A stretch of DNA of 64,000 nucleotides from Escherichia coli (GCF_022846255.1 NZ_AP025682.1); one strand, 5' to 3'. Counted from the first letter of the stretch, positions 5,754 to 43,800 are shown. Translations and numbers: made by a program. The notes: generated by a model not told the origin, from the sequence alone.

Positions 5754-5841
5754 GGTGAGGTGTCCGAGTGGCTGAAGGAGCACGCCTGGAAAGTGTGTAT
5801 ACGGCAACGTATCGGGGGTTCGAATCCCCCCCTCACCGCCA
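5754..5841 (+). tRNA. serX: tRNA-Ser (anticodon GGA)
   Basis: 88 nt, GGTGAGGTGTCCGAGTGG...GGTTCGAATCCCCCCCTCACCGCCA. It has a long variable arm, anticodon loop CTGGAAA and an encoded CCA. Confidence 0.97.
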
Positions 5842-37137: not shown

Positions 37138-38289
37138 TTATCTTAAGTTTGCCTTGAAAAATTGCTCAAATTTGGCAAATGGGATCTTACCCGCAACGTT
37201 GTCGTACAGATCAACATGGTTTGCCCCGGGGACAATCACTAACTCTTTCTCTTTGCTGCCGATTGCCTTAAAGGCATCTTCAGCAAAATAGCGTGAATGG
37301 GCTTTTTCACCGGTCACGATGAGTGTAGGGATAGTAACTTCATTAGCATAACTCAGCAGCGGCATATTCATAAATGACAGCGGCATGGTTGCATTCCAAG
37401 CACTGGTTGAGTTGACCGAACGCGCATGGAAACCACGCGGCATGCGGTAATAATCAAAGAACTCTTTCAATACCGGATTTGGATTCGCTGGCAGAGTTTC
37501 CGGCAAAATACGATCGGAAGCGGTGACGTTGCCCTTCTCATCAACGTAAATATCATGCCCGCCTGGCGCGAAAGCGCCATTTTCAGCATCCTTCCAGCGC
37601 TGCATGTTCAGATACTGCAATACGGCACGACGATCGGCAGTGGTGTAGCGGTCTTTGCCATCGCCCACGCCATGCCCCATTGCACGGCTCATGTCATACA
37701 TCACGCTGCTCGCCACCGCCTTGACACGTGTGTCCATCGCGGCGTCGTTTAAGGCCATGCCACCCCATCCGCAGATGCCGAGCAACCCGATACGGTTGCG
37801 ATCCACCTCTTTTTGCAGGCCTAAGAAATCAACCGCCGCGCTGAAATCCTCGGTGTTGATATCCGGAGATGCGACGTTTCGCGGGTAGCCGCCGCTTTCA
37901 CCCGTGTATGAAGGGTCAAAAGCCAGAGTGACAAACCCCCGTTCAGCCAGCGTCTGCGCATACAGGCCACTGGATTGCTCTTTCACCGCCCCGAAGGGGC
38001 CACTAACAGCAATAGCTGCCAGCTTGCGATCGCCACGATCCTTCGGTATATAGAGATCCCCGACTAAGGTGATCCCGTACCGGTTCGGAAAGGTCACCTT
38101 ACGGTGATCAACTTTCGTGCTCTCAGCAAACGTTTTATCCCATTTCTCGACCTGCGAAACGGGCGCGTTCGGATTGGTTGTATCAGCGTAACTCATATTT
38201 GTGACTCCATTTAATGATACGCATAACAGCATGGCGGGTATCGCAGCTGTCAATTTTTGGGTGAAAGCAGTCATCAAAATTCCCCTCAT
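37138..38289 (-). CDS. Exported alpha/beta-fold hydrolase (dienelactone-hydrolase-like)
   Basis: 383-aa ORF with an N-terminal signal-like segment (AIPAMLLCVSLNGVTNMSYA). It has a candidate nucleophile elbow IGLLGICGWGG and a C-terminal VPGANHVDLY His motif. Confidence 0.7.
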   Translation of the reverse strand: MRGILMTAFTQKLTAAIPAMLLCVSLNGVTNMSYADTTNPNAPVSQVEKWDKTFAESTKVDHRKVTFPNRYGITLVGDLYIPKDRGDRKLAAIAVSGPFGAVKEQSSGLYAQTLAERGFVTLAFDPSYTGESGGYPRNVASPDINTEDFSAAVDFLGLQKEVDRNRIGLLGICGWGGMALNDAAMDTRVKAVASSVMYDMSRAMGHGVGDGKDRYTTADRRAVLQYLNMQRWKDAENGAFAPGGHDIYVDEKGNVTASDRILPETLPANPNPVLKEFFDYYRMPRGFHARSVNSTSAWNATMPLSFMNMPLLSYANEVTIPTLIVTGEKAHSRYFAEDAFKAIGSKEKELVIVPGANHVDLYDNVAGKIPFAKFEQFFKANLR

Positions 38290-38357
38290 AAAATGTGCCA
38301 GATACTGGTTTCAGACGGATAACACTGCTGTGCTTTGTTGCAACGTGCACATTATAG

Positions 38358-38376
38358 TTAGCATTAATAGTGCTAA
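38358..38376. promoter_or_regulatory. Candidate LysR-type operator in the divergent promoter
   Basis: Perfect dyad TTAGCA-N7-TGCTAA (T-N11-A type) between the hydrolase gene and the LysR gene. Confidence 0.55.
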
Positions 38377-38444
38377 TTAGAGGGTAAAAAATGCTAAGAT
38401 TAATAACATATTGTTCTTAATCGTGATGCAGCAGCAGAGGAAGG

Positions 38445-39332
38445 ATGATGGCGAAACGGGAAAACTATAACGATCTCTATCTGTTTATGAAGGTCGTGCG
38501 AGAAGGGAGTTTTACCGCCGCCGCGCAGAGGCTTGGCCTGGCGCAGTCAGGAATTAGCCGTGCAGTGCGCGAGCTGGAAGAGCGACTGGGCGTGCAGCTT
38601 CTAGTACGCACCACGCGCAAGTTATCGCTCACCCATGCCGGCGAGTTATTCTATCGAAACGTCGAATCTGGATTTGACGCCTTAGATATGGGGCTTGCCA
38701 CGCTGGCCCATTATCGCCATACACCATCGGGTACGGTCCGAATTAATGCGAGCCAGCATGCCATTGATAAAGTGCTTCTGCCGAAGCTGGCGGTGTTTAA
38801 ACAACGATACCCGGATATTCGGCTGGAGCTCATCAGCGAAAGCCGGTTTGTCGATATTATTACTGAGCGCTTCGATGCCGGTATACGTCTGGGCTCGGAA
38901 GTGGATAGCGGTATGGTTGCGGTGCGCATTTCGCCCGATATGGAGATGGCCGTTGTCGGCACACCCGAGCACTTTCGTCGCTACGGATTTCCGCAAACCC
39001 CCACCGATTTAGTGGGTCATCCCTGCATCGCTTACCAGTTCGGCGACGGCAGCCTGTATGCCTGGGAACTCAATCAGGACGGTAAAAAGATCACCCATCA
39101 GCCTCAGGGACAATGGGCCTTTGCTGACAGTTATATGGAAGCCAAAGCCGCGAGGCTAGGTCTGGGACTGGCTTATGTTCCGGAGGAATTGGTGTCTGAT
39201 GATATAGAACAGGGGGCGCTGATCAGAGTTTTGCAATGCTACAGCCAACGCCTGGCAGGTTCATATATCTATTATCCGCACAGAAATGTGTCACCCGCTC
39301 TACGAGCGGTTATCGATACATTGAGAATTTAA
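38445..39332 (+). CDS. LysR-family transcriptional regulator
   Basis: 295-aa ORF with an N-terminal wHTH (FMKVVREGSFTAAAQRLGLAQSGISRAVRELEERLGVQLLVRTTR) and a LysR substrate-binding domain. It is divergent from the hydrolase-MFS pair. Confidence 0.9.
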   Translation: MMAKRENYNDLYLFMKVVREGSFTAAAQRLGLAQSGISRAVRELEERLGVQLLVRTTRKLSLTHAGELFYRNVESGFDALDMGLATLAHYRHTPSGTVRINASQHAIDKVLLPKLAVFKQRYPDIRLELISESRFVDIITERFDAGIRLGSEVDSGMVAVRISPDMEMAVVGTPEHFRRYGFPQTPTDLVGHPCIAYQFGDGSLYAWELNQDGKKITHQPQGQWAFADSYMEAKAARLGLGLAYVPEELVSDDIEQGALIRVLQCYSQRLAGSYIYYPHRNVSPALRAVIDTLRI

Positions 39333-40217
39333 GGGATGAAGATGAGATGATTCGCAGGCCTGGGTAATAGTTGGAAAACAACGTCCGTTCCTGGCACAGA
39401 GCAGACCATCGGACTAAACTGAAGGTCCTCTCTGTGCGAGAAACGGAAGTTAGCAATTGTGATACAGACGTGGGGCATTACTCGCTTTACAGTGTGTTAA
39501 TCAATTGGAAACAGGTCAGAATTTATTGGGTGGAATGACACCTTTAAACTTCTTGCGCATCGCAAGGAATATCTCCACCAGACGGTAAGACAGTAGATTG
39601 CGCCACAAGTCCTCAGAATGCCCTTTGCTGGGTTAACCACACGTCGTAATCATCCTTCCAGTGCAGCGGATCAAGATCCGTAATGCTCATAGTCACGCGA
39701 TTTCAAATACAAGCCCAGTGGTGTTATCCGTGAGCTGGACAGTGCTTCCGGCAACATGACTGAGACAGACAAAAAATCAGTTAGTACAGCATTGACTCAG
39801 GTTGAGCAGGAGTTAAAACAAACTGGGCTGGAGCAGTAGAAGCCTGCAGTGAATTCCCTGAATCAGGCGATTAAGTTGGCTTAAGAGTCCGTGTATGCCA
39901 TGTGCCGCGAGATGTCGTGCTATACGTGAAAGTCAGCGATATATATCGTTTTGAAGATGATTTAGGTTACGGGAGTGTCTCTGGGTGATGTATTACTTCA
40001 TCGACATCGGCTACGCACGGGTTGCCGCGATGCAGCGGATGGAAGCTGTCTGGGAAAAGAAAGCTCCGCTTGCTAATATTAGTACATCCGATGAAAAATC
40101 GTGTGTGAAAGTTGCAGATTCGTAATATACTAATGAAGAATGGAGATGTATTTTATATAATAAAAACATCTAAGTAGAGCTTTTTATTTTAAATCCTTCA
40201 TTATTACTGGAGATTTT
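39333..40217. other. ORF-poor 0.9-kb segment with short broken reading frames
   Basis: No ORF of 60 aa or more on any frame. Only fragments of ~26-50 codons are present, for example ATG 39756 to TAG (MTETDKKSVSTALTQVEQELKQTGLEQ*), ~39985-40126 (+, ~46 aa) and ATG 39690 (-, 26 aa). Confidence 0.5.
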
Positions 40218-41996
40218 ATGGGTTTTTATAATGACGCACTGAGTAAAATATATAGTGAAGATGATGATTTCCTAATTATAGGATTAACAGGGAGGACGGG
40301 GTCAGGCTGTTCAACAGTTTCTAATATACTGTCATCAGAATCAAGTGAGATAAAGCATTCTCTATTTAACGGTGATTACCCTAAGTCGAATGAAGAAAGA
40401 AAAGAGCGGGTTCTATTTAAATATTTTTCCGTGTCATGGGTTCCATTTATAAAGATACAAGCAAGTTCCATACTGACATTGTGTTTATCAAAGGACTTTG
40501 ATGGTAAGCTGAATAAATTTATTCGGGAAGTGACGGAGTTAGGTAATGACCAAAGAATCCTAGAGTCAACAGTTAATGATCTTGAATCTATACTAAAAGA
40601 AATTAAAGCTAAAGATGAAAGCTCTGATCATGATATAGATGATAAGATAAAATTCATAAATGAATATCTAATAAAAGCGAATACACAAATTAAATCCATA
40701 TTTAAGAACAAGGCTGACTATATAAAACTATATCAAGCTATAGGTAATAATTATAGATCTAGTGGGATGTACCATGACAGTTCATTTAGTGATGATTTCC
40801 ATGGTTTTTTTCTTCCTAAAAAAATAAATGATATAATTCAAAGATTAAGAACCTTAGCAAAAGAAAAGAACACAAAAACTGGAGAAAAGAAACCTATTTA
40901 TATAGTTATTGATGCTATAAGAAATCCGTTCGAAGCAACATACTTCCAAGATAGATACTCATCATTTTATTTAATGGCTGTTTCTACAGAAGAGCATTAC
41001 AGGCATCAAAGGCTTAGAGAACAAGGTTTAACTGATGCTGAGATAAAAGATATTGATGCAAAAGAATACCGTAAATCATCTTTGGATGAGAAGTCATCAT
41101 ATATATATCAGAATATACAGTCTTGTTTAGAAATATCAGACATCTATGTTGAGAATCCGGAAGAGGAAAATGTTGTTTGTCGGTACTCAGGATTGGCTAA
41201 TCAATTAATTAAATTCACTTCATTAATGAAGCGTCCCGGTATAATAACTCCATCAAATGTTGAACGTTGCATGCAGATAGCATATACAGCTAAGTTGAAC
41301 TCTGGTTGTATATCCAGGCAGGTAGGCGCTGCAGTATCTGATAGTTCATTTTCAATTAAGTCTATTGGTTGGAATGATGTACCAAGTGGTCAAGTTCCTT
41401 GCTCTTTAAGGGATAGGTTTGATTTGTCTGAGGGGATTGATGATATTGCTTACTCTGAATTCGAAAAGAACGAAAATAGTTTCATTCGAAAAATAGATAG
41501 CACTAAGATTATTTTTTTAGATGTTAAAAATAAAGGAATGAGAGCTCCATTTTGTTTTAAAACAGAATGGAATAATATCCTTGATGATAAATACAAAGAA
41601 GATCTACGGGTCGAGCATAAGTTAAATGATGATGAGTTTGCTATTATTGACAAAATAAAGTCTAACGCTAATCAAGTTTTTACAAGATCACTTCATGCTG
41701 AAGAGAATGCTTTCTTACAAATATCTAAGTATGGTGGCGTTGGTATACAGAATGGTTTTTTGTTCACAACAGCAAGCCCTTGTGAATTATGTTCTAAAAA
41801 AGCGTATCAATTAGGGATCAAACAAATATATTACATAGATCCATACCCTGGTATAGCAATGAGGAATATTTTAAACGCAGGGAGCAATAAACCATTGCTT
41901 AAGCTTTTCAATGGTGCAATAGGTAAGGCATTCCATAATTTTTACACGCCAAGAATGGCTTATAAAGATGAGCTTTCAGCAAGATCTAGGGGGTGA
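40218..41996 (+). CDS. P-loop NTPase-like + dCMP/cytidine deaminase fusion protein (AvcD/DcdV-like dCTP-deaminase defence candidate)
   Basis: 592-aa ORF with a GGAG SD 6 nt upstream of the ATG. It has a P-loop GLTGRTGSGCST (aa 22-33), the motif IVIDAIRNPFEATYF, and the zinc deaminase signature H493-A-E495...P521-C522-E-L-C525. That signature is preceded by GCISRQVGAAV...IGWNDVPSG. The gene is strongly AT-rich relative to its neighbours. Confidence 0.85.
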   Translation: MGFYNDALSKIYSEDDDFLIIGLTGRTGSGCSTVSNILSSESSEIKHSLFNGDYPKSNEERKERVLFKYFSVSWVPFIKIQASSILTLCLSKDFDGKLNKFIREVTELGNDQRILESTVNDLESILKEIKAKDESSDHDIDDKIKFINEYLIKANTQIKSIFKNKADYIKLYQAIGNNYRSSGMYHDSSFSDDFHGFFLPKKINDIIQRLRTLAKEKNTKTGEKKPIYIVIDAIRNPFEATYFQDRYSSFYLMAVSTEEHYRHQRLREQGLTDAEIKDIDAKEYRKSSLDEKSSYIYQNIQSCLEISDIYVENPEEENVVCRYSGLANQLIKFTSLMKRPGIITPSNVERCMQIAYTAKLNSGCISRQVGAAVSDSSFSIKSIGWNDVPSGQVPCSLRDRFDLSEGIDDIAYSEFEKNENSFIRKIDSTKIIFLDVKNKGMRAPFCFKTEWNNILDDKYKEDLRVEHKLNDDEFAIIDKIKSNANQVFTRSLHAEENAFLQISKYGGVGIQNGFLFTTASPCELCSKKAYQLGIKQIYYIDPYPGIAMRNILNAGSNKPLLKLFNGAIGKAFHNFYTPRMAYKDELSARSRG

Positions 41997-42226
41997 AAAT
42001 ATTGATACAGGTAAAGGCAACGAACCAGAAATGCTCGAGACTATTCTGGCTAAGTCTGCCGGGCGATAAGCACGAGTGCATATGCTGTTCCAAAAGTCTT
42101 CTATTCAATAAATTACGAAGTGCTAACTAACTGACCATGTACAATAAGAACAAATCGCCTTGAATTGCTCTTGATTGAATGGTGAAGAATTATGAGGGTG
42201 ATAGTCCTTACCACCCTCAATTAAAA

Positions 42227-42453
42227 TTAAAGGTATTTACGTGAGAAATTTTTCTTAACCACACTACTAATAAAACTATTTAGTCCATGCCCATCCTGGG
42301 CTAGCGCTTTCATCTTAGAGACCGTTGAAGCACCCAGTTTTGTAGAATCGTAACGTATTTCCATCCATCTTTAAACTGTACTGTGATAACATCGGGAGTA
42401 ATCTCATAAAACACTATTCCCGAATTACCGCCTTAATTAGCATAAGTTGGCAT
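42227..42453 (-). pseudogene. Decayed KTSC-domain-like gene (in-frame stop plus frameshift)
   Basis: The minus strand reads MPTYAN*GGNSGIVFYEITPDVITVQFKDGWKYV. After a 1-nt frame change it continues YDSTKLGASTVSKMKALAQDGHGLNSFISSVVKKNFSRKYL*. The 227-nt length is not a multiple of 3. The pattern resembles KTSC domains. Confidence 0.4.
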
Positions 42454-42797
42454 TTTTAATTCTTATTAAATTATTGCAGCAAGTCGCTGCACTCTAGTCA
42501 TATGACCCCATGCTAAACCTAATTGTTGAGCTAAGTCATAATTTCGATTATTTGATGAACGTAAGTTATTTGACAGGCAGAATTAACCATACACAGTAAT
42601 ATCCGTTTCTGGCACATAGCAGTCCTATAGATAGTGGCATACAGTCATAGATGGTCGATTGGAGGAGGTGCAAATTCTCCCATACAAAAAATACGTAAAA
42701 TCAATAACAGCTGGAAATTATTTAATAATCAAATTATCGGAAGTTCACCAGCCAGCCGCAGTATTCTGCCACGACAAGTTGCTGCGGCTTTTTATGT

Positions 42798-43085
42798 TTA
42801 ACGGATAAACAGCCAGACCAGCAGACACGCCACCGCGGGCACCGCAAAATCCATCAGACTTGCCACATCCCATGCACGAGGATCAAAACCGCCCCACCAC
42901 GGCATGTTAATCCGCTTGCCATGCCCGAACATTTCAATCCAGCGATATTCTGCCTGGGTGTGTTCACGCGCAATGAAGAACGTACAACCGGCTATCGCCC
43001 CGTAAGCCCAGTTTCCGGTAAAAAGACCAATCAGTAGCTGCGCAGCCACAGCACAAAGTGCATGAAGGAAAGGTGTTATATCCAT
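42798..43085 (-). CDS. Small membrane protein (95 aa), unknown function; moron candidate
   Basis: The preferred start is MDITPFLHAL, because AAGGAGG lies 5 nt upstream. It has two or three hydrophobic segments and is the last gene of the minus-strand tail-fibre transcription unit. Confidence 0.65.
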   Translation of the reverse strand: MDITPFLHALCAVAAQLLIGLFTGNWAYGAIAGCTFFIAREHTQAEYRWIEMFGHGKRINMPWWGGFDPRAWDVASLMDFAVPAVACLLVWLFIR

Positions 43086-43098
43086 TACTCCTCCTTTA

Positions 43099-43800
43099 TC
43101 AGATATCACTTCGGGAAGTTGATAACAACTTTAATTCTGACTCAAGTTCATCAACTCTTTCAGTCAGTTTCTGGATATGGTGAATCAGTGGAACAACCAG
43201 ACGTTCGTACATTACACCTTCGACAACAAGGCCATTGCTGGAAATAGCTTCAGGAGCATCATCTTCGTTAGCTGGTCGCCAGTGTACAAACTGAGGAGCA
43301 ATTTCTCCCACTTCCTCGGCAATCAATCCGTAGAATCCCCAGTCACTCCTGTCATTTTCGCATTGCGACCTGTACCACACAGGGCGCATCCTGAAAATGA
43401 GATCGGCGTGCTCTGAATCTATTGTCTCTACTGAATGTTTATAGCGAATAGACGATGTTGACCGCAGTACAGACGAAATTGCAGGGTCAGGATTAAGATA
43501 AAGATTTGCCGCCGCTGTAGTCGTGCCCAATTCCCATAAATAAAACGCTTCACGGCCAGTCAGCGGGTAAAAATCTCCACCATAACGACCGCTTTCCAGA
43601 TCGTTCACTTCCAGTTTGTTTTTCAGCTTATTATCAACTTCAGTTTTTGTGTATCTGGTGCTGATATCCTGCTTTGCACTGGTCATATCAGTCTGAAGCG
43701 TTGATACTTTTCCGTTAATTGAGGAAATATCTTCCTTAGTTTTACTGACATCTCCCTTTAGCGTGGTGATATCTCCTGGAATTACTGTCGATGTAGCCAT
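43099..43800 (-). CDS. Short tail-fibre/tailspike-like protein with a C-terminal S74-type intramolecular chaperone domain
   Basis: 233 aa. The N-terminus has coiled-coil heptads (ITTLKGDVSKTKEDISSINGKVSTLQTDMTSAKQDIS). The C-terminal block STSSIRYKHSVETI...GLIAEEV...LESELKLL is typical of the auto-cleaving chaperone domain. Confidence 0.7.
   Translation of the reverse strand: MATSTVIPGDITTLKGDVSKTKEDISSINGKVSTLQTDMTSAKQDISTRYTKTEVDNKLKNKLEVNDLESGRYGGDFYPLTGREAFYLWELGTTTAAANLYLNPDPAISSVLRSTSSIRYKHSVETIDSEHADLIFRMRPVWYRSQCENDRSDWGFYGLIAEEVGEIAPQFVHWRPANEDDAPEAISSNGLVVEGVMYERLVVPLIHHIQKLTERVDELESELKLLSTSRSDI

What the first reader, a model, noticed from the sequence alone, without database searches (positions are those of the whole stretch)
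39333..40217. 0.9-kb ORF-poor leader upstream of the deaminase gene: possible cis-encoded RNA regulator/antitoxin, or a gene graveyard
No ORF of 60 aa or more exists on any frame for 885 bp between the LysR gene and the deaminase gene. Only broken frames of ~26-50 codons are present. G+C composition drops sharply at ~40130, about 90 nt before the deaminase ATG. In the related AvcID system the deaminase toxin is held inactive by a small non-coding RNA encoded immediately 5' of the toxin gene. A constitutively toxic dC-deaminase carried by a prophage would need similar control. The last ~250 nt contain several AT-rich -10-like hexamers on both strands (for example TATAAT at 40157-40162) and a small hairpin (AGATGT..ACATCT, 40143-40170). 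I cannot tell from sequence alone whether an sRNA is made.
Basis: inference. Interest (0 to 1): 0.55.

Follow-up and report, generated by a model that had tools for sequence, protein, structure and literature searches.

The report
Decayed plasmid gene, not RNA antitoxin
The 0.9-kb gene-free stretch in front of the prophage's anti-phage deaminase gene is a patchwork of leftover DNA (a recombination-junction hairpin, an unassigned spacer and a broken plasmid mobilisation gene), and nothing in the sequence points to a regulatory RNA beyond an ordinary promoter and short leader.

Summary
Window 39333-40217 has no ORF of 60 aa or more and is the longest such stretch in the window, and G+C drops near 40100-40130.

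The stretch has five parts:
- 39333-39383: host intergenic DNA.
- 39380-39451: a very stable 72-nt inverted repeat. It is a recurrent junction element. Its 21-24-nt core recurs at 42602-42625, so the two copies bracket a 3.2-kb cargo.
- 39452-39716: unassigned spacer.
- 39717-40176: a decayed mobX-like gene of small MOBQ plasmids (tblastn E 1e-50). It lacks 43 codons and has five stops and one frameshift.
- 40177-40217: leader with GGAG.

Relatives separate the parts. The 90%-identical deaminase keeps only 129 nt upstream. The 71% orthologue has a 60-nt unrelated gap. The spacer plus the mobX 5' part also occurs without any deaminase. The published E. coli AW1.7 dCTP deaminase has the same P-loop and defended when cloned with 83 nt upstream.

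The 'gene graveyard' reading is supported. The AvcI-like antitoxin reading is not supported, but sequence alone cannot exclude it (about 0.1). Rfam and folding scores also miss the validated ETEC AvcI region, so they carry no weight here.

The finding is of low interest. The junction element is the more interesting by-product.

The parts
39333..39383 (.). Host chromosomal intergenic DNA after the LysR-family gene stop
   Evidence: Window 39333-39406 matches E. coli chromosomes immediately downstream of the orthologous LysR gene at about 90% identity.
39380..39451 (.). Junction element: an imperfect inverted repeat with 31-nt arms and a 10-nt spacer. It is the only statistically unusual structure in the region.
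   Evidence: the repeat finder pair I1. Folding gives -42.6 kcal/mol with z -6.2 on the + strand and z -5.8 on the - strand. Related copies occur at module boundaries in other E. coli prophages and islands.
39384..39404 (+). Core site copy 1 (TCCGTTCCTGGCACAGAGCAG), the left bracket of the 3.2-kb cargo
   Evidence: Pattern search finds 3 matches in the window and 0 in shuffles. It forms direct repeat D1 with 42602-42625.
39427..39447 (-). Inverted, degenerate copy of the core site (the right arm of the junction hairpin)
39452..39716 (.). Unassigned spacer with no ORF and no homologue outside near-identical copies
   Evidence: No hits beyond the same cassette in E. coli genomes or plasmids. The large protein search found a single 79-aa called ORF in a near-identical copy. 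The spacer occurs together with the mobX 5' part, without the deaminase, in L026.
39717..40176 (+). Pseudogene of a mobX-like accessory mobilisation gene of small MOBQ plasmids. It lacks the first 43 codons and has five in-frame stops and one +1 frameshift.
   Evidence: tblastn with intact Yersinia and E. coli plasmid proteins gives E 1e-50 and 2e-45. DNA identity to over 200 plasmids is 70-79%. Stops at 39837, 39882 and 39927 are sense codons in L020. The AT-rich tail aligns to the mobX 3' coding end.
40089..40217 (+). The only upstream DNA shared with the 90%-identical deaminase locus (L011). It is the likely promoter plus 5' leader of the deaminase.
   Evidence: Homology with L011 begins at 40089. 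Its fold z-score is -1.0.
40156..40161 (+). TATAAT, the candidate -10 of the deaminase promoter (inferred)
   Evidence: Position. It is kept as TATAAT in L020 and TATAAA in L011. No good -35 is present, and the scan did not call a promoter.
40209..40212 (+). GGAG Shine-Dalgarno, 5 nt before the ATG
   Evidence: Read directly. It is conserved in L020 and L011.
40218..41996 (+). Anti-phage dCTP deaminase (P-loop kinase-like N-terminal domain plus zinc deaminase domain), 592 aa
   Evidence: PADLOC dCTPase scores 423 bits. Pfam dCMP_cyt_deam_1 hits. NCBIfam antiphage_deaminase scores 370.7 bits, below its 400-bit cutoff. The HAE and PCxxC motifs and the GLTGRTGSGC P-loop are read.
42012..42601 (.). 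Remnant of another cassette's 3' flank: the last ~58 bp of an OLD-like ATP-dependent nuclease gene plus a broken small ORF
   Evidence: It is 93% identical to 28 E. coli genomes, where it lies under the 3' end of an ATP-dependent nuclease gene and a 75-aa ORF in a different lambdoid prophage. It is not shared with L020 or L011.
42602..42625 (+). Core site copy 2, the right bracket of the cargo. Conserved lambdoid b-region DNA resumes here.
   Evidence: Homology to L003 and to phage lambda starts at 42596-42602.

Best explanation
The 885-bp stretch has no single function. It is the left part of a 3.2-kb cargo segment (39408-42601) in the b region of a lambdoid prophage. The cargo is bracketed by two direct copies of a 21-24-nt palindromic junction site.

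From left to right the stretch contains:
- host intergenic DNA;
- a 72-nt junction hairpin that marks mosaic module boundaries in many enterobacterial phages and islands;
- about 260 bp of unassigned spacer;
- a decaying mobX-like gene from a small MOBQ mobilisable plasmid.

The deaminase once sat just downstream of mobX on such a plasmid. It was carried into the prophage together with that remnant (inferred). The deaminase is most likely transcribed from a promoter in the AT-rich mobX tail, with a candidate -10 TATAAT at 40156-40161, a leader of about 50 nt and a GGAG ribosome-binding site (inferred). Like the E. coli AW1.7 dCTP deaminase, it most likely works as a single-gene defence that depletes dCTP on infection (from the literature, not tested here). 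The rest of the region drifts neutrally.
For: Shown:
- The mobX pseudogene is clear. tblastn gives E 1e-50, with five stops, one frameshift and a 5' truncation. The TATAAT and AGATGT/ACATCT features align to the mobX 3' coding end of an intact Yersinia plasmid gene.
- Decay is ongoing. Three of the window's stops are sense codons in L020.
- Against L020, the upstream DNA is 91-94% identical with 7 indel events. Deaminase codon position 3 is 90.5% identical, and positions 1 and 2 are 97-99% identical with no indels.
- The parts dissociate. L011 (90% protein identity) shares only 40089-41988. L012-L017 (71%) share only the CDS and have a 60-nt upstream gap after a co-directional gene. L018 (59%) has a 200-nt unrelated gap. 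L026 carries 39432-39887 without any deaminase.
- No promoter-like or terminator-like site was called inside the region. No significant fold was found apart from the junction hairpin.
- The AW1.7 construct of Tal et al. has 83 nt before the ATG, was cloned without an inducer and defended. Its N-terminus aligns with ours (33% over 95 aa, same GLTGRTGSGC). The ETEC AvcD N-terminus does not.
- For the cargo brackets and junction element.
Against: - No transcript data exist, so promoter use and leader length are inferred. The -35 is poor and the scan called no promoter.
- Most more distant relatives have 200-450-nt upstream gaps, which leaves room for upstream RNAs in the family at large.
- Validated AvcI regions also evolve fast, show no sequence conservation and have unremarkable folding. 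Lack of conservation and lack of structure are therefore weak arguments on their own.
- Tal et al. found escape mutations in T7 gene 5.7. From my own knowledge, Gp5.7 inhibits host RNA polymerase. That would fit an unidentified labile inhibitor for this branch too.
Confidence: 0.8

Rival explanations
1. AvcI-like type III antitoxin. An RNA transcribed from the pseudogene-derived leader on the same strand, co-transcribed with the deaminase, binds and silences the enzyme. Its decay after phage-induced transcription shut-off releases deaminase activity.
For: - The protein has the AvcD architecture.
- AvcI lies immediately 5' on the same strand, needs 152-174 nt and has no conserved sequence. An unrelated-looking upstream sequence is therefore not by itself disqualifying.
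- The validated ETEC AvcI region is invisible to Rfam and to fold z-scores, so those negatives do not count.
- The mobX tail is retained with the deaminase in three contexts.
Against: - The immediate 5' sequence is a decaying protein gene with lineage-specific stops and indels.
- Only 129 nt are shared with the 90% relative, and nothing is shared with the 71% orthologue, whose gap is 60 nt. AvcI action is cognate-specific for two of the four tested pairs.
- ETEC-type AvcD plasmids keep a 183-186-nt small-ORF-like unit 12-54 nt upstream even at 50% protein identity. No such unit exists here.
- The AW1.7 relative works with 83 nt upstream.
Confidence: 0.1
2. Another hidden gene sits in the region: an antisense sRNA from the AT-rich block reading leftward across 39975-40150, or a small protein from one of the 26-55-codon frames.
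For: - The minus strand of 39975-40150 folds better than shuffles (z -3.5; z -3.0 to -3.4 in scan windows).
- AT-rich -10-like hexamers occur on both strands.
Against: - The main stem of that fold pairs two segments that are also present in the intact Yersinia mobX gene, and its left arm is replaced in L011. It is therefore inherited from mobX and does not travel with the deaminase.
- With 54 fold tests (27 windows on two strands), z about -3.4 is borderline.
- The short frames are fragments of mobX in three different frames or have no homologues.
- No promoter or terminator was called.
Confidence: 0.04
3. The join between the host chromosome and the prophage b region at 39384-39406 is an assembly artefact across a ~70-nt repeated element. 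If so, the left 120 bp of the 'leader' is not physically contiguous with the rest.
For: - In E. coli SF-468 and Z247 the same prophage sits at thrW, with 1.7-3.2 kb of other cargo between the hairpin and the thrW repeat.
- In the window the LysR flank joins exactly at a site that E. coli D8 also carries after its LysR gene.
Against: - A real recombination between two copies of a recombinogenic site would give the same picture.
- The element is shorter than normal read lengths.
- The junction sequence is a clean hybrid.
Confidence: 0.06

Closest known systems
AvcID (DcdV/DifV) type III toxin-antitoxin defence of Vibrio cholerae, ETEC, Proteus and V. parahaemolyticus (Hsueh et al.; bioRxiv 10.1101/2021.03.31.437871; PMC10511110)
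   Same: - The protein has a P-loop kinase-like domain plus a zinc dC deaminase domain.
- The gene is carried on mobile DNA.
- There is an ORF-poor stretch 5' of the gene on the same strand.
   Different: - Only the C-terminal ~375 aa align with ETEC AvcD, at 24% identity.
- NCBIfam scores 370.7 bits, below the 400-bit equivalog cutoff that ETEC AvcD passes.
- There is no ~185-nt small-ORF-like unit abutting the gene, unlike p58 and two related plasmids.
- The upstream DNA is a mobX pseudogene, and close relatives do not retain it.
Single-gene anti-phage dCTP deaminase of E. coli AW1.7 (Tal et al.; bioRxiv 10.1101/2021.04.26.441389)
   Same: - The size class is similar (576 vs 592 aa) and the P-loop GLTGRTGSGC is identical.
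- The N-terminal domains align, with 33% identity over 95 aa.
- Both have a short AT-rich upstream region.
- AW1.7 was cloned with only 83 nt upstream, without an inducer, and gave defence.
   Different: - Only the first ~105 aa of AW1.7 could be compared, because the table entry is truncated.
- The 3' flank of that construct is unknown to me.
- Our gene has not been tested.
mobX-type accessory gene downstream of mobA on small MOBQ (ColE-like) mobilisable plasmids. RefSeq annotates it as 'mobilization protein MobX', 'tRNA modification GTPase' or 'hypothetical protein'.
   Same: - Amino-acid identity is 68-72% over residues 44-185, and DNA identity is 70-79%.
- The 3' end, including the AT-rich tail, is collinear with the intact gene.
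   Different: - The first 43 codons and the mobA partner are missing.
- It has five stops and one frameshift.
- It is located in a prophage.
Variable accessory cargo (morons) of the lambda b region and of the P2 hotspot between the tail-fibre assembly and sheath genes (Rousset et al. 2022, PMC9122126). Nilsson et al. 2004, Mol Biol Evol 21:1, is known to me by title only.
   Same: - Low-GC defence cargo sits between conserved tail-fibre genes and the prophage end.
- The same 21-24-nt site lies in the lambda b region between ea47 and ea31.
- The site brackets a single-gene cargo in a P2-like prophage.
   Different: - The papers I could read describe hotspots by their flanking core genes and not by a short junction site.
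- The 2004 paper may already describe this site, but I could not check it.

Membership tests
AvcID type III TA system | Toxin with an N-terminal P-loop kinase-like domain and a C-terminal zinc-dependent deoxycytidylate deaminase domain | tested here: met
   Pfam dCMP_cyt_deam_1 (E 2.5e-12) and a weak AAA_18 hit. PADLOC dCTPase 423 bits. NCBIfam antiphage_deaminase 370.7 bits, below the 400-bit cutoff. HAE and PCxxC motifs and the P-loop read.
AvcID type III TA system | A non-coding RNA of at least ~152-174 nt (transcript ~280 nt) encoded immediately 5' of the toxin gene on the same strand. In characterised loci it is visible as a ~185-nt small-ORF-like unit abutting the gene. | tested here: not met
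   The 5' sequence is a decayed mobX gene, and no abutting small-ORF-like unit exists. Only 129 nt are shared with the 90% relative, and the 71% orthologue has a 60-nt gap. For contrast, see p58, pZ1323PEC0011-4 and the Klebsiella plasmid. This is indirect evidence, because an RNA cannot be ruled out from sequence.
AvcID type III TA system | Co-transcription of the RNA with the toxin gene, and a large excess and lability of the RNA | not testable with these tools
   This needs RNA-seq, Northern blots or rifampicin chase (criteria).
AvcID type III TA system | The toxin alone causes filamentation or dC depletion, and the cognate RNA relieves this in trans | not testable with these tools
   This needs expression experiments (criteria).
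Single-gene anti-phage dCTP deaminase (Tal et al.) | Kinase-like P-loop (G29/C30 of GSGC essential) and zinc-binding cysteines of the deaminase domain | tested here: met
   GLTGRTGSGC at residues 22-31 and PCELC near residue 520. The N-terminal alignment to AW1.7 has E 2e-14.
Single-gene anti-phage dCTP deaminase (Tal et al.) | Defence conferred by the gene with only its short native promoter region | not testable with these tools
   The precedent is the AW1.7 construct, which has 83 nt upstream. Our gene is untested.
mobX-like gene (pseudogene) | Significant collinear similarity to intact MobX-type proteins | tested here: met
   tblastn E 1e-50 (Yersinia aleksiciae pB-8086-2) and 2e-45 (E. 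coli pFUJ80154-3).
mobX-like gene (pseudogene) | Disrupted reading frame that cannot encode the full-length product | tested here: met
   It lacks codons 1-43 and has in-frame stops at 39837, 39882, 39927, ~39963 and 40123, plus a +1 frameshift near 39975. L020 carries a different set of lesions.
Known RNA families (Rfam 15) | A match at or near a family's gathering score | tested here: not met
   Only sub-threshold microRNA-model hits appear on the junction hairpin (26 bits against gathering scores of 68-90). This test has no power for AvcI, because the validated ETEC AvcI region also gives no relevant hit.

The most novel reading that the evidence does not exclude
The most novel reading still open concerns the left end of the region and not the leader. 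The 72-nt hairpin at 39380-39451 and its core copy at 42602-42625 may be sites of a cassette-exchange system. In this reading, a lox-like 8-8-8 palindrome (GTCCGCTC-CTGGCACA-GAGCGGAC) is used by an unidentified recombinase to swap defence and accessory genes. The swaps would run between lambdoid b regions, the P2 tail-fibre/sheath hotspot and CP4-like chromosomal islands. The deaminase with its junk flanks would then be one such cassette. The alternative is that the element is only a short shared 'linker' that promotes homologous exchange. It may also already have been described (Nilsson et al. 2004).
Probability: 0.25. Interest if true: 0.65.

Novelty: already known. Interest (0 to 1): 0.22.

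Why it matters
If the leader had encoded an AvcI-like RNA, RNA-antitoxin control would extend to the large, divergent AW1.7-type branch of anti-phage dCTP deaminases. That would also explain how a prophage tolerates such an enzyme. The evidence instead points to an ordinary situation: a defence gene carried with the wreckage of its earlier plasmid home.

There are three practical lessons.
- ORF-poor flanks of defence genes in prophage cargo regions can be recombination debris.
- The functional upstream unit of this deaminase is at most about 130 nt, which is useful for cloning.
- Rfam and folding scores cannot find AvcI-type RNAs even where they are known to exist. Only synteny and experiment can decide.

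The by-product may matter more for understanding how defence genes move. It is a short palindromic junction element that sharply delimits mosaic modules in hundreds of enterobacterial phage contigs and brackets low-GC cargo.

Tried and rejected
- **Rfam on 38000-43500.** It returned only spurious microRNA hits on the hairpin. I rejected it as evidence either way, because the validated ETEC AvcI region also gives nothing.
- **Fold z-scores along both strands.** Only the junction hairpin stands out. I rejected this as a test for AvcI, because the ETEC AvcI region has z -0.16.
- **Substitution-rate test against L020.** The upstream DNA diverges like codon position 3. In bona fide ETEC-type AvcD plasmids, however, the upstream region also diverges about 1.6-fold faster than the CDS. 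The rate alone therefore does not discriminate, and I use it only as supporting evidence.
- **Homologues of the spacer 39452-39716.** DNA searches in E. coli genomes and plasmids, two tblastn searches with conceptual translations and one search of the 5.8-billion-protein set found only near-identical copies. The spacer stays unassigned.
- **tblastn of all proteins of two mobX-bearing plasmids against the region.** Only mobX matches, and there is no mobA remnant.
- **Hairpin as prophage att site.** Rejected. In E. coli SF-468 and Z247 the thrW-derived att repeat lies 1.7-3.2 kb beyond the hairpin.
- **Hairpin as tRNA-like or retron RNA.** The only tRNA in the window is at 5754-5841, and there is no reverse transcriptase near it in the window.
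- **Hairpin as intrinsic terminator.** There is no T-run on the + strand and only a weak one on the - strand, and the scan did not call it.
- **Genome-contig scan for close deaminase relatives.** It gave only three loci at 43-44% identity, which were of little use for flank comparison.
- **Nilsson et al. 2004.** I could not read this paper to check prior description of the junction site.

Full report
**1. The observation**

The region is as described. No ORF of 60 aa or more overlaps 39333-40217. It lies between a LysR-family gene (38445-39332) and a 592-aa two-domain deaminase (40218-41996). Pfam, PADLOC and NCBIfam confirm both genes.

It is the longest ORF-free stretch of the window. The second longest (801 bp) lies directly downstream of the deaminase. 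G+C falls from 0.465 to 0.295 across about 40100.

TATAAT is at 40156-40161.

ORF absence is not in itself improbable. About 20% of shuffles of the 885 bp also lack an ORF of 60 aa or more. The consensus scan called no promoter-like and no terminator-like site inside the region.

**2. What the DNA is**

Only five of 5426 complete E. coli genomes carry the stretch. In all of them 39381-43200 is 98-99% identical and joined to the tail-fibre end of a lambdoid prophage.

The first 74 nt (39333-39406) instead match the chromosome downstream of the orthologous LysR gene in many E. coli, at about 90%.

A more sensitive DNA search showed that 39723-40176 is 70-79% identical to a gene found on hundreds of small mobilisable plasmids, just downstream of the MOBQ relaxase gene mobA. 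RefSeq annotates it as MobX, 'tRNA modification GTPase' or hypothetical.

Translated comparison with two intact copies gives E 1e-50 and 2e-45. It also shows the damage:
- the first 43 codons are missing;
- there are five in-frame stops;
- there is one +1 frameshift.

The alignment continues through the AT-rich block.

The spacer 39452-39716 has no homologue outside near-identical copies.

**3. The left end**

Positions 39380-39451 form a strong inverted repeat: -42.6 kcal/mol, z -6.2, and no shuffle folds as well. It is the only significant structure in a scan of both strands.

Its left arm, TCCGTTCCTGGCACAGAGCAG, recurs as a direct repeat at 42602-42622. A degenerate pattern for this site finds three matches in the window and none in shuffles.

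Conserved lambdoid DNA resumes exactly at 42602. This holds for L003 and for phage lambda itself, which carries the site between ea47 and ea31.

The deaminase therefore sits in a 3.2-kb cargo bracketed by two copies of the site.

In E. coli SF-468 and Z247 the same prophage is integrated at thrW. There the thrW repeat lies 1.7-3.2 kb beyond the hairpin. The hairpin is thus an internal module boundary and not the att site.

The downstream flank 42012-42601 is also debris. It is 93% identical to the last ~58 bp of an OLD-like nuclease gene plus a small ORF in a different lambdoid prophage.

**4. Do the upstream parts travel with the deaminase?**

They do not.
- L020 (97% protein identity, different context) shares 39489-42011.
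- L011 (90%, on a Rep3 plasmid-like contig) shares only 40089-41988. That is 129 nt upstream, containing the last 24 codons of mobX.
- L012-L017 (71%, chromosomal, between a DUF3748 gene and glyS) share only the CDS. Their upstream gap is 60 nt of unrelated sequence.
- L018 (59%) has a 200-nt unrelated gap.
- L026 carries 39432-39887 (spacer plus the mobX 5' part) next to IS91-type genes, with no deaminase.

Against L020, the upstream DNA is 91-94% identical with seven indel events. Deaminase codon position 3 is 90.5% identical, and positions 1 and 2 are 97-99% identical with no indels. Three of the window's mobX stops are still sense codons in L020, so the gene is still decaying.

**5. Comparison with AvcID**

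From the papers, AvcI (DifV) has these properties:
- it is encoded immediately 5' of avcD on the same strand;
- it is co-transcribed with avcD;
- it is 152-174 nt at minimum, with a transcript of about 280 nt;
- it is far more abundant than the toxin mRNA and labile;
- its sequence is not conserved between homologues;
- for two of the four tested homologues (P. mirabilis and ETEC) it inhibits only its cognate enzyme.

In ETEC p58 and two related plasmids the unit is visible as a 183-186-nt small ORF, 12-54 nt before the gene. This holds even at 50% protein identity. No such unit exists in the window.

Our protein aligns with ETEC AvcD only over the C-terminal ~375 aa, at 24% identity. It scores below the NCBIfam equivalog cutoff that ETEC AvcD passes.

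Its N-terminus does align with the E. coli AW1.7 dCTP deaminase of Tal et al., with an identical GLTGRTGSGC P-loop. The AW1.7 construct listed in their Table S5 has only 83 nt before the ATG. It was cloned with its native promoter, used without an inducer, and defended against phages, with dCTP depleted during phage infection.

The premise that the enzyme must be constitutively toxic and therefore needs a long 5' RNA does not hold for the nearest characterised branch.

**6. Limits of the tests**

Three tests lack discriminating power.
- Rfam has no match for the validated ETEC AvcI region.
- That region folds no better than shuffles, with z -0.16.
- Real AvcI regions diverge faster than their toxin genes, about 62% against 76% nucleotide identity at 84% protein identity.

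The negative Rfam result, the flat z-scores and the near-neutral rate therefore do not by themselves exclude an AvcI-type RNA.

Four lines of evidence do discriminate:
- the identity of the sequence as a decaying protein gene;
- the double dissociation among relatives;
- the absence of the syntenic small unit;
- the AW1.7 precedent.

An RNA element confined to the last ~129 nt or to the mRNA leader remains possible. Most distant relatives have 200-450-nt upstream gaps, so upstream RNAs elsewhere in the family are not excluded either.

**7. Most likely mechanism**

Shown:
- the region is a patchwork of host DNA, junction element, spacer and mobX pseudogene;
- only 129 nt or less of upstream DNA is retained with the gene across contexts.

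Inferred:
- the deaminase once lay downstream of mobX on a small MOBQ plasmid and was moved with that remnant into a site-bracketed cargo slot of the prophage b region;
- it is transcribed from a promoter in the AT-rich mobX tail (-10 TATAAT at 40156-40161, kept as TATAAA in L011), with a leader of about 50 nt and a GGAG 5 nt before the ATG;
- it acts as a single-gene dCTP-depleting defence, as in AW1.7.

I give this 0.8, the AvcI-like reading about 0.1, and other hidden genes about 0.04.

**8. The junction element (by-product)**

The 24-nt palindrome GTCCGCTC-CTGGCACA-GAGCGGAC brackets other variable cargo. In some copies a second, inverted unit follows it.
- In a P2-like prophage it brackets a single-gene cargo between the tail-fibre assembly and sheath genes (L027).
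- In CP4-like islands it sits next to a 200-aa site-specific integrase (L021, L028-L030).
- In another lambdoid prophage it sits next to retron Eco8 (L003).

I compared 99 distinct 821-nt segments from those loci:

| Pairs | Count | Where homology stops |
|---|---|---|
| Share only the right flank | 548 | 480 begin within -5 to +4 nt of the site's first base |
| Share only the left flank | 221 | 216 end 30-54 nt past the site |
| Homologous straight through | 36 | not applicable |

Eighteen same-orientation site pairs lie 0.6-5.2 kb apart. Many have low-GC DNA between them, and one locus has three sites in a row.

This is the signature of a mosaic joint. I could not decide whether it is a recombinase site or a short homology linker. 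A 2004 paper whose title points to site-specific recombination in P2-like phages could not be read.

**9. Verdict**

The 'graveyard' alternative is right, and the RNA-antitoxin idea is not supported. The finding as posed is ordinary (interest about 0.2). The junction element deserves a separate look.

Noticed in passing
window 39380-39451 and 42602-42625; also L003, L021, L027-L030, L031 (lambda ~24,340) and IMG/VR loci L032-L151: A ~65-70-nt junction element with a 24-nt palindromic core (GTCCGCTC-CTGGCACA-GAGCGGAC) brackets variable, often low-GC cargo. It occurs in lambdoid b regions, a P2-like hotspot and CP4-like islands. In 99 phage segments, homology between pairs stops within a few nt of the site on one side and 30-54 nt past it on the other. 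It may be a recombination site and may already be described (Nilsson et al. 2004, not readable here).
   Followed up: partly
window 41997-42797: This is the second-longest ORF-free stretch of the window (801 bp), directly downstream of the deaminase. Within it, 42012-42601 is 93% identical to the 3' end of an OLD-like ATP-dependent nuclease gene plus a 75-aa ORF in a different lambdoid prophage of 28 E. coli genomes. The small ORF is frameshifted here. This suggests the deaminase replaced a nuclease in an existing cargo slot.
   Followed up: partly
window 39333-39406 compared with L001 4771-4817, L002 6280-6335 and L153 36100-36175: In E. coli SF-468 and Z247 the same prophage sits at thrW, with extra cargo between the hairpin and the thrW repeat. 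In the window the LysR flank joins the phage b region exactly at the junction site, and no thrW repeat is present. E. coli D8 has the site after its LysR gene, followed by a GTPase/Ag43 island. This is either a site-mediated rearrangement or an assembly join.
   Followed up: partly
L026 5871-6329 (matches window 39432-39887): The spacer plus the 5' part of the mobX remnant occurs at 93% identity, without any deaminase, on a metagenome contig between IS91-family (Y2 transposase) genes. The only protein-database hit to the spacer is a 79-aa ORF called there.
   Followed up: partly
L025 2618-2803, L154 705-887, L155 124-306: Three small plasmids with ETEC-type AvcD each carry an annotated 183-186-nt 'hypothetical protein' ORF 12-54 nt upstream. 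This is the position of the published AvcI RNA. Its size and position are conserved, but the sequence decays quickly (46-62% nt identity). The validated ETEC unit has no Rfam match and an unremarkable fold (z -0.16).
   Followed up: yes
window 39975-40150, minus strand: The antisense strand of the mobX remnant folds better than shuffles (z -3.5). The main stem pairs TATTAGTA with TATACTAA-type segments that are also present in the intact Yersinia mobX gene, and the left arm is lost in L011. It may be a feature of mobX genes themselves. It remains unexplained.
   Followed up: partly
window 40218-41996: The deaminase scores 370.7 bits on NCBIfam NF041025, below the 400-bit equivalog cutoff. RefSeq annotates it only as 'hypothetical protein' in the five E. 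coli genomes that carry it. Close relatives (above 59% identity) are rare, and the next tier is ~50% identical Pseudomonas proteins of ~552 aa.
   Followed up: no
L012-L017 4001-5788: The 71%-identical orthologue lies in a conserved chromosomal neighbourhood (spoT, rpoZ, gmk ... DUF3748 gene | deaminase | glyS, glyQ). Its flanking gaps are only 60 nt and 81 nt, so it is a bare single-gene insertion with no mobile-element debris.
   Followed up: no
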